DNA of 44,183 nt, taken from NCBI GenBank assembly GCA_016201355.1, contig JACQCY010000011.1:1-44183 (forward strand). The letters are read 5' to 3'. The translations under genes and the position numbers were made by a program. Below, piece by piece: positions 203 through 34,602 of the stretch (position 1 is the first letter of the stretch; every line of letters begins with the position of its first letter). Source of the DNA: Candidatus Yonathbacteria bacterium (GTDB taxonomy: Bacteria; Patescibacteriota; Minisyncoccia; Phycocordibacterales; UBA1550). The notes beneath the pieces are model-generated. The model had not been told where the DNA came from. It searched no databases and saw only the letters and a list, made by a program, of their open reading frames with translations.

Positions 203-2008
203 ATGGAAGACAAAAATAATAAATTAACATTTTTAAAATTTCTGGGTACTTTGAGGTGGGTGTTTGTTTATAATGCAAAACTAGCACCATTTGCTGTTTT
301 TTCCTATACAATCGCTAATATCTTTCAAAGGATCAGTCCTCTTATTAATGCATATATTTTTGCGCGGTTACTGGATGATGTTATAAAAATTGTCGCGTCA
401 CACGGAAGTTCAAAAGAAATCATTCCCATGCTTGGAATACTTCTCGCATACAATCTTATTAACTCAATGGTTAGTTCCGCAAAGTCTTATTTTGGAACAG
501 TGATAAGGGATGCAACTTTATATAAATCTCCACAGATATTACATCAGCACATTTATTCATTGGGTATCCAGACATTGGAAAATCCTGAAGTGGTGAATAA
601 AATTCAGCGAGCTCGTGAAGCACTCTTTTTTCTGGGTTCTGATCTTGAGCAAACAATAACAGTGACGGCTTATATTATTACCCTCATCACCTCGGCTCTC
701 ATTGTAATAAGAATAATACCTCTTGTGGCGATTATTGTCTTTGTTTCAATCCTTCCAGAGATGATTTCAAATAGATATCATTTGAAAAAAGCTTGGAAAT
801 TATATCATGGAAAAACCGAACATAGACGAAAAGCTAGTTTTGTATTTGATTCATTAACGCAAACTTCAAACTTGCATGAAATTACGGTAACTTCTGCGTA
901 CGAATACTTAAGTGATGTTTATAGGCAATTTGCAGATTGGTATATGGAGAAAGAACTAGCTATTTTGAAAAGGATGGAATATTTTAGTTTCTCATTTGGC
1001 TCAATGACCTCTATTGCGAGCATATTCGGATATTTTATTATCTTGAAGAACCTATTTAATGGAGCTGTTTCTGTTGGAGGGGCAACATTTCAAATGAGGG
1101 CGCTCGATACTTTTGTTAATATCCTGCAATCAGTGGGAGATAATTATGTGACATTAACCGAGAGATGTCTTCGCATTAATGAGATCAAAGAAGTGTTTGA
1201 TATGAAGCCGATGATTTCTGATGGGGATGTGGAAATGGTCGCTTCTGCGGATGCCCCGAACATCGCATTCAAGGGAGTTAGTTTTAAATATCTTAACTCC
1301 GAGAGATTTGTTATTCAGGATATGGATATTGAGATTAAGCCAGGAGAAAAAATTGCGATTGTTGGAGAGAATGGAGCGGGAAAGACGACCCTCGTGAAGT
1401 TACTGAGCAGGTTTTACAAAGTGGACAAAGGAGGTATCTACTTGAATGAACAAAATCTCAACGACATCAAAATAGATAGTTGGTACAAAAATCTTGGGGT
1501 GCTGTTTCAGGATTACAATACCTATGGTTCGCTGACTCTCAAAGAAAATATTTTTTTGGGGGATTCACAGAGAGAATTTAACGAAGCAAAGATGGAGACG
1601 GCTGCAAATAAAGCGAATGTTAATTCATTTATTTCTAATTATAAAAATGGGTACGAACAAGTTCTCAGTGAAAAATTCAAAGGAGGCACGCGCCCGAGCA
1701 CGGGACAGTGGCAGAAAATAGCAATTGCAAGGTTCTTTTATCGTGATTCTCCGGTGGTTATTTTTGATGAGCCTACGGCTTCTATTGATGCAGTCTCGGA
1801 AGCGGAGATTTTTGGTCATATTTATGAGTTTTTCAAGAAGAAGACCGTGATTATTATTTCACATAGGTTTTCCACGGTCCGTAATGCGGACAGGATTTAT
1901 GTAATGGATGGCGGGAAGATTGCAGAACGAGGCAATCACGATCAGCTGATGAGTTTGAAAGGGAAGTACTACAAGGCATTCAATATCCAGGCTGGGGGGT
2001 ATAATTAA
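203..2008 (+). CDS. ABC transporter, fused permease/ATP-binding protein (type-1 exporter, MsbA/LmrA-like)
   Basis: 601 aa with a hydrophobic N-terminal half. The C-terminal NBD has Walker A GENGAGKTT, ABC signature STGQWQKIAIAR, Walker B VVIFDEPTASID and H-loop ISHR. Confidence 0.9.
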   Translation: MEDKNNKLTFLKFLGTLRWVFVYNAKLAPFAVFSYTIANIFQRISPLINAYIFARLLDDVIKIVASHGSSKEIIPMLGILLAYNLINSMVSSAKSYFGTVIRDATLYKSPQILHQHIYSLGIQTLENPEVVNKIQRAREALFFLGSDLEQTITVTAYIITLITSALIVIRIIPLVAIIVFVSILPEMISNRYHLKKAWKLYHGKTEHRRKASFVFDSLTQTSNLHEITVTSAYEYLSDVYRQFADWYMEKELAILKRMEYFSFSFGSMTSIASIFGYFIILKNLFNGAVSVGGATFQMRALDTFVNILQSVGDNYVTLTERCLRINEIKEVFDMKPMISDGDVEMVASADAPNIAFKGVSFKYLNSERFVIQDMDIEIKPGEKIAIVGENGAGKTTLVKLLSRFYKVDKGGIYLNEQNLNDIKIDSWYKNLGVLFQDYNTYGSLTLKENIFLGDSQREFNEAKMETAANKANVNSFISNYKNGYEQVLSEKFKGGTRPSTGQWQKIAIARFFYRDSPVVIFDEPTASIDAVSEAEIFGHIYEFFKKKTVIIISHRFSTVRNADRIYVMDGGKIAERGNHDQLMSLKGKYYKAFNIQAGGYN

Positions 2009-2015
2009 CAATCGC

Positions 2016-2044
2016 TTGCATTTTTCAGTTATTTTTGTTAAGAT
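2016..2044 (+). promoter_or_regulatory. Putative sigma70-type promoter of rpsB (TTGCAT-17 nt-TAAGAT)
   Basis: TTGCAT 2016-2021, a 17-nt spacer, then TAAGAT 2039-2044. The -10 box ends 10 nt before ATG 2055 and there is no SD. Confidence 0.4.
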
Positions 2045-2054
2045 TTCGTAACTT

Positions 2055-2759
2055 ATGGATACCAAGCAACCAATATATAAAGACCTTATCGCCGGGATGT
2101 TCGCCGCGGGGGCGCATTTCGGTTATTCGCGTTCCCGTCGTCATCCTTCAATAAAGAATTTTATCTTCGGTTCAAAAAAAGGTGTTGAGATTCTTGATCT
2201 TGAAAAGACAAGCGCTGAGCTCGAGCGCGCGAAAGGTTTTGTAAGATCACTCGCCAAAGGCGGAAAGCAAATTCTCTTTGTGGGGACAAAGAATGAAGCC
2301 AAGAAAATAGTTGAAGATGGAGCGCTCTCTATTGATATGCCTTTTGTCGCCGAAAGGTGGGTTGGGGGCGCGCTTACCAATTTCCCCGAAATAAAGAGAC
2401 GGGTTGCGCTTCTCGAAGATCTTCGTTCCAAACACGAAAAAGGAGAACTCTCTGTTTATACAAAAAAAGAGCGTCTCCTTATTAGCAAGGATGTTGAACG
2501 CCTTGAGAGAAATTTTGGTGGGATAGTATCAATGAAAGAAATGCCCGCGGCTCTCTTTGTCGTTGACCCAAAAAAAGAATCAATCGCCGTTGACGAAGCG
2601 CGTTTCTTTAATATTCCTGTCATTGCGCTTGCCAATTCAGACTGCAACATAAAAGAAATTGATTTTCCCATCCCTTGCAATGACAGCTCTGTTTCAAGCA
2701 TATCTTTCTTTATTGAGCAAATCGTGCAGGCATTCAAAGACGGCAGGAACAGTCAATAA
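2055..2759 (+). CDS. rpsB: 30S ribosomal protein S2
   Basis: 234 aa. S2 hallmarks are AGAHFGYSRSRRHPSIKNFIFG and VVDPKKESIAVDEARFFNIPVIALANSDCN. The canonical rpsB-tsf pairing is present. Confidence 0.95.
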   Translation: MDTKQPIYKDLIAGMFAAGAHFGYSRSRRHPSIKNFIFGSKKGVEILDLEKTSAELERAKGFVRSLAKGGKQILFVGTKNEAKKIVEDGALSIDMPFVAERWVGGALTNFPEIKRRVALLEDLRSKHEKGELSVYTKKERLLISKDVERLERNFGGIVSMKEMPAALFVVDPKKESIAVDEARFFNIPVIALANSDCNIKEIDFPIPCNDSSVSSISFFIEQIVQAFKDGRNSQ

Positions 2760-2760
2760 T

Positions 2761-2850
2761 AAAATAGCAAAATAGTAGAATAGTAGAATAATAAAATATC
2801 AAAATAGTAAAATAGTAAACTATTCATTGTTCCACTATTAACTATTCATT
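2761..2850. repeat. Family-B-like word hairpin after rpsB
   Basis: The left half carries repeated AATAGT words (AATAGCAAAATAGTAGAATAGTAG...AAAATAGTAAAATAGTAA). The right half carries the complementary ACTATT words three times. Confidence 0.5.
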
Positions 2851-2857
2851 ACCCACA

Positions 2858-3448
2858 ATGATTTCTATCGAACAAATAAAAGAATTACGCGATATGACGG
2901 GAATATCCGTGATGCAATGCAAGAAAGCTCTTGAGGAGGCGAGTGGAGATAAGGAAAAGGCGCTTTTCCTTCTTCGCAAGAAGAGCGGGGATATTGCGGC
3001 GAAAAAAAATGACCGTGTTCTCGGCGCGGGCGTCATTGCTTCATATATTCACCATGGAAATACTCTTGGAGCACTTGTTGAACTTTCTTGCGAGACTGAT
3101 TTTGTTGCGCGAAACGAAGAATTTGTAGCGCTTGCGCGCGATATTGCTATGCATATTTCGGCAATGAACCCTGAATATATTAGCGAAGACCAAATTACCG
3201 AAGAGTCTCGCGCAAAGGTAAAGGGAATGTTTCAGAAAGAAGTTTCTGAGTCGGGCAAACCCGCAGATATTCAAGCAAAGATGATGGAAGGGAAACTTGC
3301 CACCTATTTTGCCGAGAAAACACTCCTCCTTCAGCCATTTGTGAAAAATCCCGATATGACCATCAAGCAATTGATCTATGGGGGCGTGCAGAAGTTTGGT
3401 GAAAAGATTATGGTTACTCGTTTTGTGCGTTTCTCGGTCGGAAAGTAG
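2858..3448 (+). CDS. tsf: Elongation factor Ts (short form)
   Basis: 196 aa with a UBA-like N-terminus ISIEQIKELRDMTGISVMQCKKALEEASGDKEKA and core LVELSCETDFVARNEEF. Confidence 0.93.
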   Translation: MISIEQIKELRDMTGISVMQCKKALEEASGDKEKALFLLRKKSGDIAAKKNDRVLGAGVIASYIHHGNTLGALVELSCETDFVARNEEFVALARDIAMHISAMNPEYISEDQITEESRAKVKGMFQKEVSESGKPADIQAKMMEGKLATYFAEKTLLLQPFVKNPDMTIKQLIYGGVQKFGEKIMVTRFVRFSVGK

Positions 3449-24907: not shown

Positions 24908-25327
24908 ATGGCAAAGAAAATAACAAAAAAGGTAAAAGTGCAGATTCCTGCGGGGAAAGCGACGCCGGCGCCTCCCTTGGGCCCCGCTCTCGGGCAGGCA
25001 GGGGTAAACATTGGTGAATTTGTAACAAAATTCAACGCTGCAACAGCAAAACAAATGGGAGATATTTTGCCCGTGGTCATTACCGTGTACGAAGATCGCT
25101 CATTTGATTTTATCGTAAAGACTCCTCCCGCTTCAAATCTGCTCTTTAAAGCGGCAGGTATAGAGAAAGGCGCGAGCAAAAAAGAAACTTTTGCAGGCTC
25201 GGTAAGCAAAGCGCAACTTCGTGAAATAGCCGAGCGCAAAATGCCAGACCTGAGCGCAAATGATGTGGAGGCGGCAATGAAGATTATTGCAGGGTCAGCA
25301 CGCTCTGCCGGGGTTGAGGTGAAATAA
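24908..25327 (+). CDS. rplK: 50S ribosomal protein L11
   Basis: [30 protein letters not shown]. 139 aa. Confidence 0.95.
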
Positions 25328-25328
25328 G

Positions 25329-25433
25329 TAGTAATTTTAAATTACAAATTTTAAATCAATTTTAATTGTCTAAATATTTTTAAATTAAATCATTTGATAT
25401 TCATTTGAAATTTAAAATTTAACACTTAAAATT
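25329..25433. repeat. Family-A element (copy 3)
   Basis: The exact 22-mer lies at 25335-25356. The right half TTTGAAATTTAAAATTTAACACTTAAAATT is partially complementary. Confidence 0.75.
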
Positions 25434-25511
25434 CTTATCTGTACTAAAAGATCCACCATTAGAGTAGCTTCCAATTTTCTAGTTTTTCGCTTTCAGTTTT
25501 TATTTTGAAAC

Positions 25512-26192
25512 ATGTCTCTCTACGAAATCGAAATCAAAAGTCTTTTAGGGAAAGAAGAACAAGCTAATGATTTAAGGAGAAAGATAGAGGAGCACCCTTT
25601 GTCTTTTTCGCTTGCTTCTAAAAATAAACAGATTAATCATTACTTCAATTTTACGGGGGAGCTTGGCGAGCGTGTTCCCGAGGATATCACCCAACATTTT
25701 TCAGATACTCACCGAAAAGCTTTTGATCAGATTGTCCAAAAAGGGAAAAGTTTTTCGGTGCGGACTCGCCATATTGATGGAAGGACAATTTTTGTTATCA
25801 AGGCGTCTCTCGATGATCAAACGAGCTCCAATGGCATTTCTCGCGCTGAATTTGAAGCTGAAATACCGCTCCTACTGTCGGAAATCGATCAGGTACTCCT
25901 TGATGCCGGGTTTGATTACCTTTCAAAATGGTCAAGGGAACGAGAAGAATATGTTTCAGGAGATGTACATATTTGCATTGATAGGAATGCGGGGTATGGG
26001 TACCTCGCTGAATTTGAGAAAGTAATCCCCCATGAATCGGAAGTGGAAAACACAAAACAATCCCTCTATGACCTAATGAAAGAATTTGGTGTAGAAGAGT
26101 TGCCCCAGGATAGACTCGACCGAATGTTTGCGCATTACAATAAATGTTGGCCAGAGTATTACGGCACGGAGAAGATTTTTTGTATTGAATAG
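25512..26192 (+). CDS. CYTH-domain (triphosphate tunnel metalloenzyme) protein
   Basis: The N-terminal YEIEIKSLL is the ExExK signature. Later charged beta-strands are FSVRTRH, FVIKAS, AEFEAEI and YGYLAEFE. 226 aa. Confidence 0.72.
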   Translation: MSLYEIEIKSLLGKEEQANDLRRKIEEHPLSFSLASKNKQINHYFNFTGELGERVPEDITQHFSDTHRKAFDQIVQKGKSFSVRTRHIDGRTIFVIKASLDDQTSSNGISRAEFEAEIPLLLSEIDQVLLDAGFDYLSKWSREREEYVSGDVHICIDRNAGYGYLAEFEKVIPHESEVENTKQSLYDLMKEFGVEELPQDRLDRMFAHYNKCWPEYYGTEKIFCIE

Positions 26193-26346
26193 GGAGAGTT
26201 TTGCTTTAAGGAGCTCATACTGGACAAATTTATTGAAAAGTATAAGCTAGAAGAGGGTTAGAAAATAGCGCCTTTTGTCTTTATGAAAATGAGGATATTG
26301 GGCTTAAAATACTTTGACAACTTACTGTAAATAAAGGAGGAATGTC

Positions 26347-26964
26347 ATGAGGAAGAAGACAAAGAACATCGTTAAAAGACCTTCGTGGGATGAGCTTTTT
26401 ATGATGACAGCGATACTTGTCGCCACAAGGCACTCTTGTTTGAAACGGGGTGTCGGCAGTTGTATTGTCAAGGACAATAAGATCGTCGCGACGGGATACA
26501 ATGGCGCGGCAAAGGGGATAAAAAGCTGTCTGGAGTTGGGCTACTGCTACTATGAGCACCTCGCAGAGCAAGAAGTAAGGACAAATGGTGGCGACATAAA
26601 GATGATTAAAGAGTCGTTCAAAATGTACTGTCAGGCGGTTCATGCAGAAGCCAATGCCAAGAGTCAATGCTTGCCGATGGTAGCAGAGGGGTCAACGATC
26701 TACATCACCAATGTCCCCTGCCCGAAATGCACGCAAGACATCATCATTACGGGAGGGGTAAAAGCGATTGTCGTCTGGAAAGAATATCTCCAGAATTACA
26801 CGCTCACGACGGATGAAAAAAAGGTAACCGATAAGAAACTCCAGCAGGCAGGGATTGCCCTGCGGTTTCTTGATCTAACCTCACACAGGATAATGGAGAT
26901 CGCCGGGTATATGGCGAACCGAGTCGGCGAAAGGCTGGACTATCAATTCAAAGGAGGAGGGTAG
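26347..26964 (+). CDS. Deoxycytidylate (dCMP) deaminase
   Basis: PSWDELFMMTAILVATRHSC, GYNG, zinc motifs HAEANA and PCPKC, and an extra Cys cluster before HAE as in ComEB/dCMP deaminases. A strong SD AAGGAGG (26334-26340) lies 6 nt before the ATG. Confidence 0.88.
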   Translation: MRKKTKNIVKRPSWDELFMMTAILVATRHSCLKRGVGSCIVKDNKIVATGYNGAAKGIKSCLELGYCYYEHLAEQEVRTNGGDIKMIKESFKMYCQAVHAEANAKSQCLPMVAEGSTIYITNVPCPKCTQDIIITGGVKAIVVWKEYLQNYTLTTDEKKVTDKKLQQAGIALRFLDLTSHRIMEIAGYMANRVGERLDYQFKGGG

Positions 26965-26965
26965 A

Positions 26966-28348
26966 ATGAAATGCAAGATAGTCCATCCTGTGTTTGCCAA
27001 GAAAGAAGTCATCATAGGTAATCCGCAATCTCCCATAGCGGTGGGTACCTTATGGTCGCAAGTGGATCACTTTTGCAAGAATCATCTCGACGGCTTGATG
27101 GACAAGATTGCCATCGTTGGTAATATTCGTTCCGTCTATGGCATTGGCATTGTAATTAGGAATTGCCTTGCCAATCCCAACATACAGAAACTCGTTGTAA
27201 GTGGGGTGGCAACATCAGATGGTTCCCTTTTAGCCCTAAAGAGATTATCGACCGATCCTTCTTTGTGCGAGACTTTTTTTCTAAGTCATCGGCACATAGA
27301 AAGATTCCTTCAGCAGGTTGAAATTATTTATCTTAACCCTGAAGAGGTCGCAGATTTTGTGGGTAAAGAATTTCTCTCACCCAAGAAGGTTTTTAAACCA
27401 TGGGTGACTTCGTTACTTGTTCCGAAGACAAAGGTCTTTCCTGCGGCAGAGTCAGGGCACCTCATAAGGGCTACAACCATCAAGGAGGGATACGAAGCAC
27501 TCTTAAAAGAGATTCGGCTCTTCGGTCATCTTCTAAAAGAAGACTCTGAAGGGAACATCCGCCAAGAGCTTTGGAAGCTGAATATGGTGATAACGAATCA
27601 AGATCCTCTGGCTTTTGATTCTGTTCCCCATTCAGAATACAATGCCTCGCATATAAAAAAATATTGCGAGGACTTCTGGATTGGCTCCCCCCCTGATGGC
27701 GTTGAATATCGTTACGGCCACATCATTAGATTTGGTTTTGGTGATCAGGTGGAGGCCGTTATCAAAGCTTTTAAGGAAAAGGTGGAGACTTTCCGGACCG
27801 TGATCTCTCTTTGGGATCCACGAGTCGAGGGGGGGTCTATCACAGCAAAAGACCCACCATGCATTACCTTGATTCATCCCAGAATCATAGGGGAGAACCT
27901 GCGCCTTACGGCGTATATTCGAACGAACGATATGTTCGGCGGTTGGCCACTCAACGCTATGGCACTCCGCTATTTTCAGTATCAGCTCTTAGAGAGACTG
28001 AAGATAGAGTTGAAGCGCCCGGAATTAAAATTGGGAGATCTCGAAGTAACTTCCGCTTCAGCCCATATTTATTCCCGGGACTGGAAGAAAATAGAGGCTC
28101 TTCTGAAGAAAGTAGGGCCTCAAAAATTCTCCCCAGACCCAAAGGGAAATTTCCAGATTAAGGTAGAGGGTGGAGAGATTGTCGTTTGGCACTTCAGTCC
28201 GGACGGTGAAAAATTGCTCCAGGTTTTCCGCGGGAAGAATGCGGAAGAATTGAGCAGAAAACTTAAACCGTTCATCTCCGATATCGGAAACGCCCTGTAT
28301 GTCGGGCGAGAGTTGAAAAAAGCGGAACAATCCCTCGGACCATCATAG
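26966..28348 (+). CDS. Thymidylate synthase-like protein with an N-terminal MtrA-N-like module and a C-terminal DUF4346-like module
   Basis: ThyA-fold signatures in order: YRYGH, DQVEAVI, RTVISLWDP, nucleophile Cys in DPPCITL (27860-27862), IRTNDMFGGWPLN (Asn at 27953-27955) and SAHIY. The N-terminus is IIGNPQSPIAVGTLWS..IAIVGNIRSVYGIGIVIRNCLANPNIQKLVVSG. The C-terminus is DPKGNFQIKV..IVVWHF..ALYVGRELKKAE. SD AAGGAGGAGG lies at 26951-26960, and the ATG is 1 nt after the deaminase stop. Confidence 0.8.
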   Translation: MKCKIVHPVFAKKEVIIGNPQSPIAVGTLWSQVDHFCKNHLDGLMDKIAIVGNIRSVYGIGIVIRNCLANPNIQKLVVSGVATSDGSLLALKRLSTDPSLCETFFLSHRHIERFLQQVEIIYLNPEEVADFVGKEFLSPKKVFKPWVTSLLVPKTKVFPAAESGHLIRATTIKEGYEALLKEIRLFGHLLKEDSEGNIRQELWKLNMVITNQDPLAFDSVPHSEYNASHIKKYCEDFWIGSPPDGVEYRYGHIIRFGFGDQVEAVIKAFKEKVETFRTVISLWDPRVEGGSITAKDPPCITLIHPRIIGENLRLTAYIRTNDMFGGWPLNAMALRYFQYQLLERLKIELKRPELKLGDLEVTSASAHIYSRDWKKIEALLKKVGPQKFSPDPKGNFQIKVEGGEIVVWHFSPDGEKLLQVFRGKNAEELSRKLKPFISDIGNALYVGRELKKAEQSLGPS

Positions 28349-28366
28349 GTTCGAGGGATTTTTTAT
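28329..28366 (+). terminator. Intrinsic terminator of the deaminase/TS-like cassette
   Basis: AATCCCTCG (28329-28337) pairs with CGAGGGATT (28352-28360) and is followed by TTTTTA. The stop codon lies in the loop. Confidence 0.7.
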
Positions 28367-28384
28367 TAGCGACATAGAGCGAGA

Positions 28385-28491
28385 GAAATGGAAAAGTAAT
28401 CTTTTCCATTTCCGAGCCGAGGAGCCTAATATATGGATTACCATATATTCTGCACTCGTTCGGAAGAATAAAAGATTACTTTCATTCTTCG
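28385..28491. repeat. Cluster of three tetraloop hairpins in the spacer before tmk
   Basis: GAAATGGAAAAG-TAAT-CTTTTCCATTTC (28385-28412, 12 bp perfect). AATATATGG-ATTA-CCATATATT (28428-28449, 9 bp perfect). GAAGAATAAAAG-ATTA-CTTTCATTCTTC (about 28463-28490, one mismatch), flanked by direct CACTCGTT repeats. Confidence 0.6.
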
Positions 28492-28634
28492 TTCACTCGT
28501 TTGAATATAAGGGTGAATACCCCGCCCCTCTGGGGCGATAAATGGGTGAGCGAAGCGAACACATTTTGTCCTGGGATTGCCTCGGGGTACATACCGCTTT
28601 TATTATTTATGGTAATATAAATGTATATAATTGT

Positions 28635-29273
28635 ATGAAAAAAGTGCCACTTATCATTTTTGACGGACTTGACGGGTCAGGGAAGAGCACTCAGGTTACG
28701 CTCTTGAAAGAGCGGATAAATAGGAAACATAAAGTCCTGTTTACGCGTGAGCCGGGAGGCGCGCCACTTTCGGAAAAAATCAGGGATATTTTCTCTACTC
28801 CTGAGGGCGCTCAGTCAAGCGCGCAGACGCAACTTTTTCTCGTCTCCGCTTCTCGTTCAAATTGGATTGAAGAGGTTACGGTCCCCAATCTGAAAGAAGG
28901 AACACCGGTAATCTCTGAACGAGGGGATTCGTCGACTTTTGCGTATCAAATATATATGAAGAAGAGGCTTGATTTGGAAAGATTATTCTGGGAGATCAGA
29001 GATGTCCTCTTTGGAGAATGGAAGCCGTCCCATTATTTTATTTTTGATGTGTCGGCGGTTGAAGCAAAACGACGCGTGAACACCGATACCAAGCGCACGC
29101 GATCGATCTTTGATATGGACCCCATTGATTCCTATGAACGCGCGCGTGATGGATTTCATCTCTTTGTAAAGAAACTCCCCGGGGAGGTTACTTTGATTGA
29201 TGGAGATAGAGACCCAAAGATTATCCACGAGGAAGTGTATGCGAAGATTAAAGAGCTTTGCGAGTGGAAATAA
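28635..29273 (+). CDS. tmk: Thymidylate (dTMP) kinase
   Basis: P-loop FDGLDGSGKSTQ, REPGG and GDSSTFAYQ. The conserved start is ATG 28635; the ORF-track start 28542 adds 31 unconserved residues. Confidence 0.88.
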   Translation: MKKVPLIIFDGLDGSGKSTQVTLLKERINRKHKVLFTREPGGAPLSEKIRDIFSTPEGAQSSAQTQLFLVSASRSNWIEEVTVPNLKEGTPVISERGDSSTFAYQIYMKKRLDLERLFWEIRDVLFGEWKPSHYFIFDVSAVEAKRRVNTDTKRTRSIFDMDPIDSYERARDGFHLFVKKLPGEVTLIDGDRDPKIIHEEVYAKIKELCEWK

Positions 29274-31107: not shown

Positions 31108-34100
31108 ATGGAGAATGAGGGGAAAAAACTTTCAAGTATTGCGCAAAGGGAAGAGGAAATCCTCTCTTTTTGGCGTGAGAAAAAAATCTTTGAGAAGACT
31201 CTTGAGCAAACGGAACATGGAGAAGCTTTTTCTTTTTATGATGGACCACCGTTTGCGACCGGAGTCCCTCACTATGGGCATATTGTTACGAGCGCTATAA
31301 AAGACGCGATTCCTCGCTATCAAACAATGTGCGGACGCCATGTTCGTCGTGTGTGGGGGTGGGACTGTCACGGGCTTCCTATCGAGAATCTCATAGAGGG
31401 AGAGCTGGGACTTCCACACAAAAAAGATATTGAGGAGTACGGTATTGGGAAATTTAATGAAGCGGCGCGCGCTTCGGTACTGCGCTACGATTCGTTATGG
31501 AAAGAAATGATTCCGCGTATTGGACGATGGATCGATATGGAGCATTCCTACAAGACGATGGACGCTTCTTATACCGAGTCGGTGTGGTGGGCTTTCAAAA
31601 CTCTGTATGAAAAAGGACTCATCTATCAAGGGTTCAAAGCAATGCAAATTTGCCCGCGCTGTGAGACGACACTCTCAAATAATGAAGTTGCGGACGGGTA
31701 CAAAGATATTACGGATATTTCGGTGACGGTGAAGTTTGAACTCGAAGAATCGAACACCAAAAACCTAACACCTAAAACCTATGTTTTGGCATGGACGACA
31801 ACACCGTGGACACTTCCGGGAAATGTGGCATTAGCGGTGAATTCGGATGAGGAATACATAAAGGTTTCAATAGGAACTGAAAAATATATTTTAGCGAAAG
31901 AACGCGCAGAGAAAATACTTGCAGGGAAAGAATATGAAATTATCTCACGGGTAAAAGGAAAGGATCTTGTTGGTAAGAAATACAAACCAATCTTTGATTA
32001 TTATTCAAAAGACGAATCTCTTGCCAACCATAAAAATGGTTGGAAAATATATGGCGCGGATTTTGTGACAATGGACAGCGGTACGGGGGTGGTACATATT
32101 GCGCCTGCTTTTGGCGAGGACGATATGGCTCTCGGCAAGAAAGAAAATTTGCCATTCATTCAACATATTTCAATGGATGGCATAATGAAAAAAGAGGTGC
32201 GTGATTTCGCCGGTGTTTCTGCAAAACCAAAAACAAAAGAGAAAGACGGACACCAATCGACAGATATTTTAATCATTAAACATCTTGCGGGGGTAGGCGC
32301 GCTCTTTTCAAAAGAAAAAATAATCCACGCATACCCTCATTGTTGGCGATGCGATACCCCACTCCTCAATTACGCCACGGAGTCGTGGTTTGTGAAAGTT
32401 ACCGATCTTAAGGGAAGACTTGTTGAGGAAAACGCAAAGACAAAGTGGGTCCCTGAAAATTTGCGCGACGGTCGTTTTGGTCAGTGGCTCCTAGGCGCGC
32501 GCGATTGGGCAATTTCTCGCTCACGGTTCTGGGGCGCGCCACTGCCGGTATGGAATTGTGATTCTTGTGAAAAGAGAAGCGTCTTTGGTTCGCGAGCAGA
32601 ATTAGCTCAGGCTACCAGAAAATCAGGAAATAAATATTTTGTAATGCGTCATGGAGAAGCTGAAAGCAATAGGGAGCGCATTGTCAGTTCAACTATTGCC
32701 ACGGGCAACAGTCACGGACTTACCGAGAAGGGAAGAAAAGAGGTAAAAGAGGCTAGTCAACGACTCGATCGAGAATCGATACAAATCATCATCTCCTCGC
32801 CTTTTCTTCGTGCAAGACAGACGGCAGAAAGTGTTGCAGATACGCTCGGGCTTAATTCAAAAGAAATAATCATCGACGAACGGCTCAAGGAGATAGACAC
32901 GGGTGTTTTTGACGGTAAATCCATTGATGATTATCGTGGATATTTTGCCTCAATGCGCGAGAAATTTATCAAGCGTCCTGAGAAGGGAGAAAATCTTCTC
33001 GATGTAAAGCGTCGTGTTATGGAGCTTATGGACGAGCTCGAAGAAAAATATCAAGGTAAAAATATTTTACTCGTAACTCATGAATATCCTCTCTGGATGA
33101 TTACCTCAGGAGTAGAAGGAGCGGATGTTGATCGAGCACTCGGAATAAAAGAGGGGAATGATGATTTTATAAAAACGGGAGAAATAAAAGAGATACCTTT
33201 TACCTTATTCCCCCACAATGCTGAATATGAATTTGATATGCATCGTCCCTATATTGATAATGTTCCTGTTGTGTGTTCGTGCGGGGGGAAAATGCTCCGT
33301 GTACCCTATGTCTTTGACTGTTGGTTTGAATCCGGTTCTATGCCGTATGCGCAATTTCATTATCCATTTGAGAACAAGGAATTGTTTGAAAAAAATTTCC
33401 CTGCGAATTTTATTGCCGAGGGAATCGATCAGACGCGCGGATGGTTCTATAATATGCTCAATCTCTCGGTGGGACTTTTTGGAAAAGCTCCCTTTAAAAA
33501 TGTACTCGTGAATGGTCTTGTCCTTGCCGAGGATGGACAGAAGATGTCAAAGCGTCTTAAAAATTATCCAGATCCGCTTGATATTATCAACAGATATGGC
33601 GCAGATGCGATGCGGTATTATCTATTGTCGTCACCGCTCGTTCATGCGGAGGATTTTGCTTTTTCTGAGAAAGGAGTGGATGAGGTGGTAAAGAAAGTGC
33701 TTATGCGTCTTCTCAATGTCCTCTCGTTTTACGAGCTTCATAAGTCAAAGAAGGGTGAATCAAAAAATACCAAAGAAAATATTTTAGATCAATGGATATT
33801 ATCTCGCCTCGCAGAACTTGGCAATGAGATGACGCTCTCCTTGGATAAATATGAACTCGAACGTGCGATAAAACCAATTGGGCTTTTCGTTGACGACCTC
33901 TCCACCTGGTACCTTCGCCGTTCACGGGATCGATTTAAGTCAGACGATGAAGAGGAGCGCACGCAAGCGATAGAAACAACACGAGAAGTATTTTTTGAGT
34001 TTTCAAAATTGATAGCTCCCATAATGCCATTTATGGCGGATCATATTTATTTAAAAATGGAAGGAGAAAAAGAGAGCGTGCATTTGGAAGAATGGCCTGT

Positions 34101-34602
34101 TTTTAGTGAGCCAAACCAAGATGCTCTCGCGTGGATGAAACAAATAAGACAAATTGTTTCCCTAGCTCTTGAGGCTCGCGCAAAAGCTGAGATAAAAGTG
34201 CGCCAACCGCTACACGAGTTAAAAGTTAAAAGTGGAAAGTTGAAAGTGGGATACGCGGAACTTATTAAAGACGAGGTAAATGTAAAAGAAGTCGTATTTG
34301 ACGATGCAATGTCCGAAGAAGTGGAGCTTGATACTATTATTACCCCGGAGCTCAAACAAGAGGGGCAATTTCGCGAGCTTGCGCGCGCGGTGCAAGAGCT
34401 TCGCAAGACAAAAGGACTTACGCCATCGGATATGGCGACACTTGAGATTGGGGCGGACGAAGAGGGACGCGCTCTCGTTGATGCATTTAGCGACGAACTC
34501 AAAAAAACATCACTTCTAAATGAAATTGTGTTTAAAGAGGTGCAAGGCGAGTCAGTGGATGCAAATGGCATTTTGTTTACGATAGCGTTAAGTAGAAAAT
34601 AG
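31108..34602 (+). CDS. ileS: Isoleucine--tRNA ligase (type 2) carrying an inserted histidine-phosphatase domain
   Basis: HIGH = PHYGHIV, editing domain TTPWTLPGN, WAISRSRFWGAPLPVW, FDCWFESGSMPYAQ, EGIDQTRGWFY and KMSKRL. At 1164 aa it is longer than usual because of the insert at 32620-33207. Confidence 0.93.
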   Translation: MENEGKKLSSIAQREEEILSFWREKKIFEKTLEQTEHGEAFSFYDGPPFATGVPHYGHIVTSAIKDAIPRYQTMCGRHVRRVWGWDCHGLPIENLIEGELGLPHKKDIEEYGIGKFNEAARASVLRYDSLWKEMIPRIGRWIDMEHSYKTMDASYTESVWWAFKTLYEKGLIYQGFKAMQICPRCETTLSNNEVADGYKDITDISVTVKFELEESNTKNLTPKTYVLAWTTTPWTLPGNVALAVNSDEEYIKVSIGTEKYILAKERAEKILAGKEYEIISRVKGKDLVGKKYKPIFDYYSKDESLANHKNGWKIYGADFVTMDSGTGVVHIAPAFGEDDMALGKKENLPFIQHISMDGIMKKEVRDFAGVSAKPKTKEKDGHQSTDILIIKHLAGVGALFSKEKIIHAYPHCWRCDTPLLNYATESWFVKVTDLKGRLVEENAKTKWVPENLRDGRFGQWLLGARDWAISRSRFWGAPLPVWNCDSCEKRSVFGSRAELAQATRKSGNKYFVMRHGEAESNRERIVSSTIATGNSHGLTEKGRKEVKEASQRLDRESIQIIISSPFLRARQTAESVADTLGLNSKEIIIDERLKEIDTGVFDGKSIDDYRGYFASMREKFIKRPEKGENLLDVKRRVMELMDELEEKYQGKNILLVTHEYPLWMITSGVEGADVDRALGIKEGNDDFIKTGEIKEIPFTLFPHNAEYEFDMHRPYIDNVPVVCSCGGKMLRVPYVFDCWFESGSMPYAQFHYPFENKELFEKNFPANFIAEGIDQTRGWFYNMLNLSVGLFGKAPFKNVLVNGLVLAEDGQKMSKRLKNYPDPLDIINRYGADAMRYYLLSSPLVHAEDFAFSEKGVDEVVKKVLMRLLNVLSFYELHKSKKGESKNTKENILDQWILSRLAELGNEMTLSLDKYELERAIKPIGLFVDDLSTWYLRRSRDRFKSDDEEERTQAIETTREVFFEFSKLIAPIMPFMADHIYLKMEGEKESVHLEEWPVFSEPNQDALAWMKQIRQIVSLALEARAKAEIKVRQPLHELKVKSGKLKVGYAELIKDEVNVKEVVFDDAMSEEVELDTIITPELKQEGQFRELARAVQELRKTKGLTPSDMATLEIGADEEGRALVDAFSDELKKTSLLNEIVFKEVQGESVDANGILFTIALSRK
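32620..33207 (+). other. In-frame inserted domain inside ileS: histidine phosphatase (phosphoglycerate-mutase-like) superfamily
   Basis: Signature elements in order: YFVMRHGEAESN, SSPFLRARQTAE, ERLKEIDTGVFDG and ILLVTHEYPLWMI. The insert is flanked by collinear IleRS sequence (..SRAELAQATRKS | ..FDMHRPYIDNVP). Confidence 0.75.

What the first reader, a model, noticed from the sequence alone, without database searches (positions are those of the whole stretch)
25512..29273. Co-directional CYTH - dCMP deaminase - TS-like - dTMP kinase cluster: a compact dC-to-dT nucleotide conversion line
Seen: four consecutive + strand genes. Established knowledge: dCMP deaminase makes dUMP, ThyA-fold enzymes methylate (or hydroxymethylate) dUMP, and Tmk phosphorylates dTMP. 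CYTH enzymes are triphosphate-tunnel metalloenzymes acting on triphosphorylated substrates. Inference: for an organism that probably salvages nucleotides, this cluster could convert scavenged deoxycytidine nucleotides into dTDP. The CYTH protein is a candidate front-end triphosphatase, which is speculative. The same enzyme set is also what phages use to rebuild or deplete dNTP pools, so a role in phage conflict (dCTP/dCMP drain) cannot be excluded.
Basis: inference. Interest (0 to 1): 0.6.

Follow-up and report, generated by a model that had tools for sequence, protein, structure and literature searches.

The report
Rebuilt thymidylate gene cluster, tiny bacterium
This ultra-small bacterium makes the DNA letter T with a housekeeping gene cluster built from unusual parts: a CYTH enzyme that appears to replace dUTPase, and a three-domain thymidylate synthase that does without the usual dihydrofolate reductase.

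Summary
The four + strand genes are real: CYTH (25512-26192), dCMP deaminase (26347-26964), a thymidylate synthase (TS) homologue (26966-28348) and dTMP kinase (true start 28635, end 29273). They are not one operon. Only deaminase and TS are tightly coupled, and a strong terminator follows TS. In the nearest relative, CYTH abuts tmk directly. The TS is a three-domain fusion (MtrA-like, archaeal-type ThyA core, PterinBD-DUF4346). It is the genome's only TS.

The "dC-to-dT line" reading holds. Deaminase lies within 6 kb of the fusion in 26 of 80 loci from Patescibacteria, DPANN archaea and cyanobacteria. The CYTH link also holds: 15 of 17 loci of this 224-aa family have a TS within two genes. 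Related islands carry either CYTH or dUTPase, never both. The genome's reductase is the triphosphate type, so a dNTP-to-dNMP step is needed, and no dUTPase or Dcd was found.

In 301 related genomes, FolA accompanies 66 of 75 canonical ThyA but 1 of 23 fusion TS.

A phage-defence role is not supported.

Earlier notes of this scan reached the CYTH and MtrA-TS ideas on other genomes. I tested the CYTH idea here and the MtrA-TS idea in part. No biochemistry exists for either.

The parts
25405..25432 (+). Promoter-like site upstream of the CYTH gene (TTGAAA-16-TAAAAT, 10 of 12)
   Evidence: Consensus scan. This is a pattern match only.
25512..26192 (+). CYTH / triphosphate-tunnel metalloenzyme, 226 aa. 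Member of a ~224-aa family specific to Patescibacteria. Proposed dUTP (possibly also dCTP) hydrolase that replaces dUTPase.
   Evidence: PF01928 E 2.7e-12. Residues E5, E7, R84, K97, E113, R144, D157 and E169 are invariant, and K9 and R86 nearly so. AF2 pLDDT is 92.8 and the best folds are SaTTM 7ns9 and class IV cyclase 2fjt.
26347..26964 (+). dCMP deaminase (ComEB/DCTD type), 205 aa. Its stop lies 1 nt before the TS start.
   Evidence: PF00383 E 6.8e-18. TIGR02571 ComEB 85 bits, below its cut-off. HAE and PCxxC zinc motifs are visible. It sits directly upstream of the fusion TS in L002, L003, L005, L008, L004 and L051.
26966..27415 (+). TS fusion, N-terminal MtrA-like Rossmann-type domain (about aa 1-150). 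It lacks the MtrA cobalt-ligand histidine.
   Evidence: PF04208 E 9e-06. The profile hits the MtrA cytoplasmic domain 5laa at 7.5e-15. The QGH loop is deleted or replaced in all 31 fusion sequences aligned.
27449..28111 (+). TS fusion, archaeal (methanogen)-type ThyA catalytic core (about aa 162-382)
   Evidence: TIGR03283 E 7.6e-28, aa 166-376, 97 bits, below the cut-off of 174. PF00303 44 bits, above its cut-off. C299, R319, D322, N330, H367, Y369, E201 and Y250 are invariant. These residues align with PPCH, RS.D....N and DAHIY of solved ThyA.
28136..28345 (+). TS fusion, C-terminal PterinBD-DUF4346 domain (aa 391-460)
   Evidence: PF14251 E 6.2e-12. D391 and G394 are invariant; H409, Y445 and G447 are nearly so. 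The same domain is a stand-alone ~130-aa protein in all 8 cyanobacteria searched.
28329..28360 (+). Intrinsic-terminator-like hairpin (13-bp stem, 7 GC pairs, then TTTTTATT) spanning the TS stop codon
28361..28634 (.). AT-rich spacer with hairpins. It forms the right end of the 2.44-kb segment (26193-28634) that is absent from the nearest relative.
   Evidence: Inverted repeats I1 and I9. Junction alignment with L130.
28635..29273 (+). dTMP kinase (Tmk), 212 aa from the corrected start. ArgRS follows 25 nt later.
   Evidence: TIGR00041 114 bits against a cut-off of 83. The start aligns with the L130 tmk start. The P-loop reads GLDGSGKST.

Best explanation
This is the cell's own housekeeping route to thymidine nucleotides. 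It is assembled from non-standard parts and sits in a conserved slot between secE-nusG-rplK and argS-ileS.

Proposed flow:
1. A B12-dependent ribonucleoside-triphosphate reductase, encoded elsewhere in the genome, makes dCTP and dUTP.
2. The CYTH enzyme hydrolyses dUTP (and possibly dCTP) to the monophosphate. This is the job that dUTPase does in sister genomes.
3. dCMP deaminase converts dCMP to dUMP.
4. The three-domain thymidylate synthase methylates dUMP to dTMP through the classical Cys-nucleophile chemistry of the ThyA fold.
5. Tmk makes dTDP.

The TS belongs to an archaeal-type lineage that lives without FolA-type dihydrofolate reductase, whether or not it is fused. I infer that its flanking MtrA-like and pterin-binding domains handle the C1/pterin cofactor so that free dihydrofolate need not be recycled by FolA.

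What is shown: the gene identities, the sole-TS status, the neighbourhood conservation, the mutual exclusion of CYTH and Dut, and the anti-correlation between the TS type and FolA.

What is inferred: the substrate and cleavage site of CYTH, the order of the hydrolysis and deamination steps, and what the accessory TS domains do.
For: Sole TS: there is one PF00303 hit and no ThyX in the 97%-complete genome.

Deaminase-TS pairing:
- The gap here is 1 nt.
- The deaminase lies directly upstream of the fusion TS in Patescibacteria L002, L003, L005, L008 and L004, and in the Woesearchaeote L051.
- A deaminase lies within 6 kb in 26 of 80 loci holding the fusion, including many cyanobacteria. Tmk lies within 6 kb in 10 of 80.

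CYTH:
- 3340 homologues were found, and the top 120 are all at least 51% identical.
- The TTM catalytic residues are conserved.
- 15 of 17 loci of this family carry a TS within two genes downstream, and 16 of 17 have a dT gene next door.
- This also holds outside the nusG-rplK context (L112, L114) and where the block is inverted as a unit (L117).
- A true Dut is absent from all 10 genomes with this CYTH, against 105 of 301 genomes in the class sample.
- Within one genus, the same nusG...gatB island holds either CYTH (G234, G255) or Dut (G112, G168, G080, G294).
- L004 reads Dut-deaminase-TS where the window reads CYTH-deaminase-TS, and that genome has no CYTH.

Need for the hydrolysis step:
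- The RNR is of the RTPR type (TIGR02505 E 1.3e-93, 314 bits against a cut-off of 340).
- No Dut or Dcd was found.

TS chemistry: C299, R319, D322, N330, H367, Y369, E201 and Y250 are invariant and align to solved ThyA.

FolA independence:
- In 301 class genomes, FolA is present in 66 of 75 with canonical ThyA, 1 of 23 with the long fusion type, and 0 of 20 with the short archaeal type. Fisher p is 9e-14, uncorrected for phylogeny.
- Across phyla, 17 of 24 fusion-bearing genomes have it as the only TS and lack FolA. These include complete cyanobacterial chromosomes.
- In the two DPANN genomes that have both, FolA sits directly after a separate canonical ThyA.
Against: - No biochemistry exists for this CYTH family or for the fusion TS.
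- The genome also has a MazG-like ORF and three NUDIX genes, any of which could hydrolyse dCTP or dUTP.
- CYTH usually travels with a particular Dcd type, only 39% identical to the Dcd of the Dut-bearing sisters. If that Dcd is a bifunctional Dcd-Dut, it alone would explain the loss of Dut.
- In the nearest relative, CYTH abuts tmk with no TS on the 6.3-kb contig. CYTH is therefore not strictly tied to a TS.
- Solved relatives of the CYTH fold (SaTTM, thiamine triphosphatase) remove the terminal phosphate or act on tripolyphosphate. They do not release PPi from dNTPs.
- Kin are not independent, so the co-occurrence statistics overstate significance.
- SHMT, FolD, FTHFS and DHFR were not found in this genome although Fmt is present. 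In relatives SHMT and FolD are adjacent, so one missing contig could explain their absence. The C1 supply here is therefore unresolved.
- The MtrA cobalt-ligand His is absent from the N-domain.
Confidence: 0.6

Rival explanations
1. Deaminase, TS and Tmk form the dT line, but CYTH is a syntenic bystander with another job. It could be a tripolyphosphatase, a thiamine or other triphosphatase, or a cyclic-nucleotide-forming enzyme. The dNTP-to-dNMP step would then be done by MazG, NUDIX or a bifunctional Dcd.
For: - A MazG-like ORF and three NUDIX genes are present.
- The best structural matches are a PPPi/ATP-binding triphosphatase and class IV cyclases.
- Some CYTH loci have no TS (L106, L108, L130).
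- CYTH co-varies with a distinct Dcd type that could itself be bifunctional.
Against: - The cassette is kept in unrelated flanks and moves as a block (L112, L114, L117).
- The slot is positionally equivalent to Dut (L004 against the window).
- CYTH and Dut exclude each other within one genus.
- This genome has neither Dcd nor Dut, yet has an NTP-reducing RNR.
Confidence: 0.25
2. The fusion TS is an ordinary dihydrofolate-releasing ThyA. Its extra domains are regulatory or structural, and an unrecognised dihydrofolate reductase (for example an SDR of the FolM type) recycles the cofactor.
For: - The catalytic and pterin-contact residues, including Asp322 (E. coli Asp169), are those of classical ThyA.
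- SHMT is present in 19 of 24 fusion-bearing genomes, so methylene-THF is the natural donor.
- Missing DHFR is a known open problem in FolA-less bacteria (PMC1971073).
- An SDR sits beside SHMT in L109.
Against: - In ~0.6-Mb genomes with no folate synthesis, FolA accompanies 88% of canonical ThyA but 4% of fusion TS and 0% of short archaeal-type TS.
- The three-domain architecture is conserved across three phylum-level groups at ~30% identity, with invariant residues in both accessory domains.
Confidence: 0.3
3. The cluster is a phage-conflict or dNTP-depletion module (a dCTP/dCMP drain), or a phage-derived island.
For: - The deaminase domain gives partial hits to anti-phage dCTP deaminase models: NF041025 at 55 bits against a cut-off of 400, and PADLOC dCTPase over positions 338-484 of 630.
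- The deaminase-TS pair is a 2.44-kb indel relative to the nearest relative.
Against: - Only the shared deaminase fold matches. There are no defence hits for CYTH or TS.
- This is the only TS of the genome.
- The context is nusG-rplK and argS-ileS.
- GC content is like the rest of the window.
- The same arrangement occurs in many free-standing genomes.
Confidence: 0.02
4. The TS homologue makes a modified pyrimidine (hydroxymethyl-dUMP or dCMP, or 5-methyl-dCMP) rather than dTMP.
For: - ThyA-fold relatives include dCMP and CMP hydroxymethylases and a flavin dCMP hydroxylase. These appear among the fold matches (9iqu, 5jnh, 1b49).
- An earlier scan note (e1-1297069) describes Asp-type ThyA homologues in other Patescibacteria.
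Against: - Asn330 is invariant at the position that selects uracil over cytosine.
- This is the sole TS, and a Tmk follows it.
- The deaminase upstream supplies dUMP.
Confidence: 0.03

Closest known systems
Classical bacterial routes to dTTP: dcd-dut-thyA-folA-tmk (E. coli type) and dCMP deaminase-thyA (Bacillus ComEB / eukaryotic DCTD type)
   Same: The overall logic is the same: deaminate a deoxycytidine nucleotide, obtain dUMP, methylate it with a ThyA-fold enzyme, and phosphorylate with Tmk. The deaminase and Tmk are ordinary members of their families.
   Different: No Dut, Dcd, FolA or Ndk was found. A CYTH enzyme occupies the dUTPase slot. The TS is a three-domain archaeal-type fusion.
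CYTH / triphosphate-tunnel metalloenzymes of the CyaB-like group: SaTTM (PDB 7ns9), Yersinia pestis class IV adenylyl cyclase (2fjt, 3n0y), PH1819 (2een)
   Same: It shares the ExExK motif, the paired acidic and basic tunnel residues and the predicted tunnel fold. These relatives bind nucleoside triphosphates or PPPi.
   Different: It is ~45 residues longer, with strongly conserved family-specific motifs (LNHYF, AKWSREREEY, DKNAGYGYLAEFE, QDRLERMFAHYN). It is tied by gene order to dCTP deaminase, TS and Tmk. It excludes Dut. No dUTPase activity is known for any CYTH protein.
Methanogen-type thymidylate synthase (TIGR03283, MJ0511-like)
   Same: This is the best-scoring TS model over the whole core (aa 166-376). 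It is a short ThyA fold that lacks the canonical N-terminal folate-contact region.
   Different: The score of 97 bits is below the equivalog cut-off of 174. The protein is fused to two extra domains. The hosts (Patescibacteria, DPANN, cyanobacteria) are not known to use methanopterin.
Bifunctional DHFR-TS of protozoa and plants
   Same: A TS is fused to a second module in organisms that have no separate FolA. That is one way to couple cofactor recycling to TS.
   Different: The added domains are not DHFR (no PF00186 match). One lies N-terminal and one C-terminal to the TS. No reductase activity has been shown.
ThyX, the flavin-dependent thymidylate synthase
   Same: It has the same genomic signature: a TS that occurs without FolA.
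   Different: The fold and chemistry are unrelated. Here the ThyA Cys nucleophile and the dUMP-binding residues are intact.
MtrA, corrinoid subunit of methyl-H4MPT:coenzyme M methyltransferase, and the predicted MesA-MtrA methyl relay (Price et al. 2021, PMC7857596)
   Same: The N-domain is homologous to the MtrA cytoplasmic domain (5laa, 8q3v). The relay is a precedent for a biosynthetic methyltransferase that draws methyl groups from MtrA.
   Different: The cobalt-ligand His loop is missing in all fusion sequences examined. There is no membrane anchor. Corrinoid binding is untested.

Membership tests
ThyA thymidylate synthase (PF00303, EC 2.1.1.45) | Family model above its curated cut-off | tested here: met
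   PF00303 scores 44.2 bits against a cut-off of 24.3, over aa 259-382. A profile of 21 homologues hits solved ThyA chains at 5.6e-21.
ThyA thymidylate synthase (PF00303, EC 2.1.1.45) | Catalytic Cys in a Pro-Cys motif, plus the dUMP-binding Arg/Asp/Asn/His/Tyr set, with Asn (not Asp) at the base-specificity position | tested here: met
   C299, R319, D322, N330, H367, Y369, E201 and Y250 are invariant in 21 sequences. They align with PPCH, QRS.D and GDAHIY of 4dq1 and 3uwl. The mapping to E. coli numbering is from my own knowledge.
ThyA thymidylate synthase (PF00303, EC 2.1.1.45) | Co-occurrence with FolA-type DHFR, as expected for a DHF-releasing enzyme | tested here: not met
   FolA is found in 1 of 23 genomes with the long fusion type, against 66 of 75 with canonical ThyA. 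Across phyla it is found in 4 of 24 fusion-bearing genomes, and two of those also carry a canonical ThyA next to FolA.
Methanogen-type TS (TIGR03283 equivalog) | Score above the equivalog cut-off | tested here: not met
   97.4 bits against a cut-off of 174.55, although the alignment covers the full model, positions 2-201.
dCMP deaminase (PF00383; ComEB/DCTD type) | Zinc-binding H-A-E and P-C-x-x-C motifs, and the family model above its cut-off | tested here: met
   PF00383 scores 64.9 bits against a cut-off of 25. VHAE and PCPKC are read in the translation. The ComEB equivalog cut-off is not reached (85 against 219).
Anti-phage dCTP deaminase (NF041025; PADLOC dCTPase) | Full-length match including the N-terminal kinase-like part | tested here: not met
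   NF041025 scores 54.9 bits against a cut-off of 400. The PADLOC hit covers only profile positions 338-484 of 630. The protein is 205 aa.
dTMP kinase (TIGR00041) | Equivalog cut-off and P-loop | tested here: met
   114.1 bits against a cut-off of 83.25. The P-loop reads GLDGSGKST.
CYTH / triphosphate-tunnel metalloenzyme (PF01928) | N-terminal ExExK, conserved acidic and basic tunnel residues, and the tunnel fold | tested here: met
   PF01928 scores 47.3 bits against a cut-off of 23.2. EIEIK lies at residues 5-9. E5, E7, R84, K97, E113, R144, D157 and E169 are invariant. The AF2 model (pLDDT 92.8) matches SaTTM at 9.5e-12 and class IV cyclases.
Class IV adenylate cyclase CyaB (TIGR00318 equivalog) | Equivalog cut-off | tested here: not met
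   37 bits against a cut-off of 57.95, with a partial alignment over aa 82-196.
dUTPase by function (non-orthologous replacement) | Hydrolysis of dUTP to dUMP + PPi | not testable with these tools
   Only genomic evidence is available: mutual exclusion with Dut and the shared slot.
MtrA corrinoid protein (PF04208) | Family model above its cut-off over the cytoplasmic domain | tested here: met
   PF04208 scores 25.9 bits against a cut-off of 25, which is borderline. The profile against 5laa gives 7.5e-15 over positions 4-145.
MtrA corrinoid protein (PF04208) | Histidine cobalt ligand (Harms & Thauer 1996, cited in PMC7857596) and a C-terminal membrane helix | tested here: not met
   The QGH loop of 5laa and 8q3v is deleted or replaced in the window protein and in 30 other fusion sequences from three phylum-level groups. 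The domain is followed by the TS core, not by a membrane helix.
Bifunctional DHFR-TS | A DHFR (PF00186) domain fused to the TS | tested here: not met
   There is no PF00186 match in the protein or anywhere in the genome.

The most novel reading that the evidence does not exclude
The archaeal-type thymidylate synthase with its MtrA-like and PterinBD-DUF4346 domains may be a third mechanistic solution to thymidylate synthesis. On this reading it is a ThyA-fold enzyme that never releases dihydrofolate. Either the accessory module re-reduces the pterin in place, or it relays the one-carbon unit (possibly through a bound corrinoid or other cofactor) so that tetrahydrofolate is regenerated. Alongside it, a CYTH triphosphate-tunnel enzyme would be the cell's dUTPase, a new activity for that superfamily. 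Together they would define an undescribed dTMP pathway shared by Patescibacteria, DPANN archaea and many cyanobacteria.
Probability: 0.3. Interest if true: 0.9.

Novelty: new variant of a known kind. Interest (0 to 1): 0.62.

Why it matters
Thymidylate synthesis is essential and is a major drug target. The rule "ThyA needs FolA, ThyX does not" is a textbook piece of comparative genomics.

A ThyA-fold enzyme family breaks this rule. In Patescibacteria the anti-correlation with FolA is strong. Across phyla, 17 of 24 sampled fusion-bearing genomes have it as their only TS and lack FolA. These include nitrogen-fixing cyanobacteria such as Crocosphaera and the diatom endosymbionts. This makes the old "missing dihydrofolate reductase" question directly testable with one recombinant protein.

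A CYTH protein acting as dUTPase would give this widespread, mostly orphan superfamily a new core-metabolic role. It would also correct metabolic reconstructions that score these ultra-small bacteria as lacking dUTP sanitation.

For this genome, the cluster shows that the organism makes its own dTMP rather than depending wholly on a host.

Tried and rejected
- Literature searches for DUF4346, PF14251, MtrA with thymidylate synthase, and CYTH with thymidylate found nothing relevant.
- A region-restricted homologue search with the C-terminal domain returned only close fusion proteins. It gave no other architectures.
- I looked for target-site-like repeats around the 2.44-kb deaminase-TS indel and found none convincing. 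Whether it was inserted here or deleted in the relative stays open.
- My guess that a 72-aa ORF between TS and argS in L006 is a MazG-type pyrophosphatase was not confirmed by Pfam.
- I first read DHFR next to the fusion TS in DPANN genome G024 as evidence that the fusion releases DHF. Closer reading showed a separate canonical ThyA-DHFR pair lying convergent to it.
- MtrA-style His-on cobalamin binding was considered. It is judged unlikely because the His loop is absent. Other binding modes are not excluded.
- The absence of SHMT and FolD in this genome is not used as strong evidence. The two genes are adjacent in relatives, so one unbinned contig would remove both.
- The AF2 model of the fusion has pTM 0.54, so the domain arrangement is not reliable.

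Full report
**1. What is there**

The window is contig C6 of a 580-kb, 57-contig genome that is 97% complete, of Patescibacteria type. Four consecutive + strand ORFs occupy 25512-29273.
- CYTH: PF01928, E 2.7e-12.
- dCMP/cytidine deaminase: PF00383, E 6.8e-18, with HAE and PCxxC visible in the sequence.
- A 460-aa thymidylate synthase (TS) homologue.
- dTMP kinase: TIGR00041, 114 bits against a cut-off of 83.

The flanks are housekeeping genes: secE-nusG-rplK upstream and argS-ileS downstream. GC content is like the rest of the window.

**2. Operon structure**

Only the deaminase stop and the TS start are 1 nt apart. A hairpin with a 13-bp stem and a T-run lies at 28329-28360, across the TS stop. 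A 274-nt AT-rich spacer with further hairpins follows.

The listed tmk ORF starts at 28542. The true start is the ATG at 28635. It aligns base for base with the tmk start of the nearest relative.

That relative is L130, whose CYTH is 88% identical. It reads SIMPL-secE-nusG-rplK-CYTH-tmk-(next gene, cut off by the contig end), with CYTH and tmk contiguous. The 2.44 kb from 26193 to 28634, holding the deaminase, the TS and the spacer, is therefore an indel between two conserved neighbours. I could not decide its direction.

Other relatives carry the same CYTH-deaminase-TS order (L003, L005). In others the deaminase-TS pair sits after groEL (L002, L008). The pair behaves as a movable two-gene module.

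**3. The TS is a three-domain fusion and the only TS**

- Residues 13-122 match MtrA. PF04208 is borderline, but a family profile hits the solved MtrA cytoplasmic domain 5laa at 7.5e-15.
- Residues 166-376 match the methanogen-type TS model TIGR03283 over its whole length (7.6e-28, below the equivalog cut-off), and also PF00303.
- Residues 391-457 match PterinBD-DUF4346.

An AF2 model built on 21 homologues has mean pLDDT 85, with low-confidence linkers at residues 155-161 and around 381-390. pTM is only 0.54, so the domain packing is not reliable.

C299 (in a Pro-Cys motif), R319, D322, N330, H367, Y369, E201 and Y250 are invariant across homologues that share as little as 29% identity. They align with the catalytic and dUMP-binding residues of solved ThyA. 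Asn at the specificity position argues for dUMP rather than dCMP.

The genome has no other PF00303 hit and no ThyX.

**4. The fusion is a wide family**

- 79 clusters at 90% identity were found by the word-indexed search.
- 157 representatives at 50% identity score E <= 1e-30, most of them aligned nearly full length.
- 322 places were found in species-representative genomes.

Hosts are Patescibacteria at 50-72% identity. At ~30% identity the hosts are DPANN archaea and many cyanobacteria. These include Crocosphaera watsonii, Nostoc, Scytonema and the endosymbionts of Epithemia and Rhopalodia.

A dCMP deaminase lies within 6 kb in 26 of 80 such loci. It is directly upstream in the Patescibacteria and in one Woesearchaeote, and 0.1-3.5 kb downstream in cyanobacteria. 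A Tmk lies within 6 kb in 10 of 80. The deaminase-TS(-Tmk) association is therefore conserved across domains of life.

**5. Independence of FolA**

I first checked 24 fusion-bearing genomes from the three groups.
- FolA-type DHFR was found in 4, SHMT in 19 and ThyX in 3.
- A canonical ThyA exists in only two of them (G011, G024). In both it is followed directly by the DHFR. In G024 that pair lies convergent to the fusion gene.
- Seventeen genomes have the fusion as their only TS and no FolA. These include complete cyanobacterial chromosomes.

I then cross-tabulated an even sample of 301 genomes of the window's class.

| TS type | Genomes | With FolA |
|---|---|---|
| Canonical ThyA | 75 | 66 |
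| Long fusion type | 23 | 1 |
| Short unfused archaeal type | 20 | 0 |

Fisher p is 9e-14. It is not corrected for relatedness.

In the CYTH cassettes that carry a canonical ThyA, a DHFR is adjacent in every case listed in section 7. The archaeal-type TS thus behaves genomically like ThyX.

What the accessory domains do is unknown.
- The histidine that ligates cobalt in MtrA (Harms & Thauer 1996, cited in PMC7857596) lies in a loop that is deleted or replaced in all 31 fusion sequences I aligned.
- PF14251 also exists as a stand-alone ~130-aa protein in all 8 cyanobacteria searched. It rings in the Methanocaldococcus, Methanosarcina, Sulfolobus and Synechococcus controls.

**6. One-carbon supply in this genome**

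SHMT, FolD, FTHFS and FolA were not found, but Fmt is present. In close relatives that have the same deaminase-TS pair, SHMT and FolD are adjacent on another contig. A single unbinned contig could therefore explain their absence here. I do not lean on it.

**7. CYTH belongs to the thymidylate neighbourhood**

The protein is one of a large, well-conserved ~224-aa family of Patescibacteria. There are 3340 hits, and the top 120 are all at least 51% identical. The ExExK motif and the paired Arg/Lys and Glu/Asp tunnel residues are conserved. The AF2 model has pLDDT 92.8. It resembles the Sulfolobus triphosphatase SaTTM, class IV adenylyl cyclases and PH1819.

I examined 17 loci of this family.
- 11 read CYTH-Dcd-ThyA with a DHFR, and often SHMT, beside them.
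- 3 read CYTH-deaminase-fusion TS.
- 1 reads CYTH-long Dcd-fusion TS-Tmk.
- 1 reads CYTH-Tmk.
- 1 has no TS nearby.

The cassette also occurs away from nusG-rplK (L112, L114). In L117 (CYTH 65% identical) the block CYTH-Dcd-ThyA-DHFR-SHMT is inverted as one unit between argS and rplK.

**8. CYTH and dUTPase exclude each other**

- A true Dut (strong PF00692 hit) is absent from all 10 genomes that carry this CYTH. The weak hits there are the Dcd genes.
- Dut is present in 105 of 301 genomes of the class sample.
- Within one genus (g64), the same island nusG-rplK-rplA-...-gatB contains either CYTH just before Dcd (G234, G255) or Dut just before gatB (G112, G168, G080, G294). It never contains both.
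- In L004 the order is Dut-deaminase-fusion TS, where the window has CYTH-deaminase-fusion TS. That genome has no CYTH.

The window's genome needs such an enzyme.
- Its ribonucleotide reductase is closest to the adenosylcobalamin-dependent ribonucleoside-triphosphate reductase (TIGR02505, 1.3e-93, 314 bits against a cut-off of 340). Deoxypyrimidines should therefore appear as dCTP and dUTP.
- Neither Dut nor Dcd is found.

This makes CYTH the best candidate for the dUTP (and perhaps dCTP) to monophosphate step.

Four caveats apply.
- A MazG-like ORF and three NUDIX genes exist.
- CYTH co-varies with a distinct Dcd type that might itself be bifunctional.
- Solved CYTH relatives are not known dUTPases.
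- Shorter ~180-aa CYTH proteins in the class show no such pattern.

**9. Phage conflict**

Nothing supports it.
- PADLOC gives a partial deaminase-domain hit and two weak partial hits to Tmk.
- The NCBIfam anti-phage dCTP deaminase model scores 55 bits against a cut-off of 400.
- The genes are the sole route to dTMP, and the context is core housekeeping.

**10. Relation to earlier notes of this scan**

Notes on other genomes had proposed CYTH as a dUTPase surrogate (e1-805112). Others proposed an MtrA-like partner or fusion of archaeal-type TS with a possible B12 chemistry (e1-1076098, e1-1072485, e1-2065981; a later check priced the bold reading at 33/100).

I reached both ideas before reading them. 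I then tested them here.
- The Dut exclusion and the slot equivalence support the first idea.
- The FolA cross-tabulation supports an unusual cofactor economy for the second.
- The missing His ligand argues against MtrA-style cobalamin binding.

A first-reader note (e1-3770997) calls 25441-28540 a laterally acquired tract. The comparison with L130 instead puts the variable segment at 26193-28634 and leaves CYTH outside it.

**11. Verdict**

The cluster is an ordinary function, thymidylate supply, carried out by an unusual and partly uncharacterised set of enzymes.

The particular window is one member of wider families. The interest therefore lies in two family-level predictions that can be tested at the bench: CYTH as dUTPase, and a FolA-independent ThyA-fold synthase.

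Noticed in passing
window 24908-25511 and the whole genome: rplK is followed by the CYTH gene, not rplA. tblastn with a relative's L1 protein finds nothing in the 97%-complete genome. Sister lineages (L103, L105, L132-L134) keep rplA between rplK and the thymidylate island.
   Followed up: partly
window 31108-34602: The isoleucyl-tRNA synthetase (1164 aa) carries an inserted histidine-phosphatase (His_Phos_1) domain. The same architecture is annotated in relatives L115, L117 and L131. It has already been followed up elsewhere in this scan (e1-3771001).
   Followed up: no
window 28385-28482: The spacer between TS and tmk holds a perfect 12-bp hairpin (28385-28412) and a 23-nt inverted repeat (28393-28415 / 28460-28482). 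The function is unknown. They lie at the edge of the indel relative to L130.
   Followed up: partly
G000 contig C10, about 960-3257: The only ribonucleotide reductase found is of the adenosylcobalamin ribonucleoside-triphosphate reductase type. This tiny genome therefore depends on imported B12. No nucleoside-diphosphate kinase was found.
   Followed up: partly
L104:8872-10227: A 451-aa protein with a ThyX (PF02511, 8.7e-16) N-terminal half sits directly after fusion TS-Tmk in a relative. That island therefore carries two different TS types.
   Followed up: no
L118-L125 (cyanobacterial genomes): All 8 cyanobacteria checked encode a stand-alone ~125-140-aa PterinBD-DUF4346 protein (E ~1e-29), in addition to the fusion TS. 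Its neighbours gave no obvious clue.
   Followed up: partly
class sample, e.g. G028, G038, G270, G287, G323: Twenty of 301 related genomes have a short (~215-330 aa) unfused archaeal-type TS, and none has FolA. Earlier scan notes say an MtrA-like gene sits beside such TS genes. I did not check that here.
   Followed up: no
L131:5881-7203: A 440-aa ORF with a weak Hom_end_hint (intein / homing endonuclease) hit lies between DHFR and argS in one canonical cassette.
   Followed up: no
L002:7578-8165, L008:7935-8522, and the contig: In L002 an HD_3 / YfbR-like 5'-deoxynucleotidase gene lies just downstream of the thymidylate module. A similar ORF in L008 was identified only by sequence likeness, not by Pfam. 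A third example lies on the contig. This is another recurrent accessory of the island.
   Followed up: no
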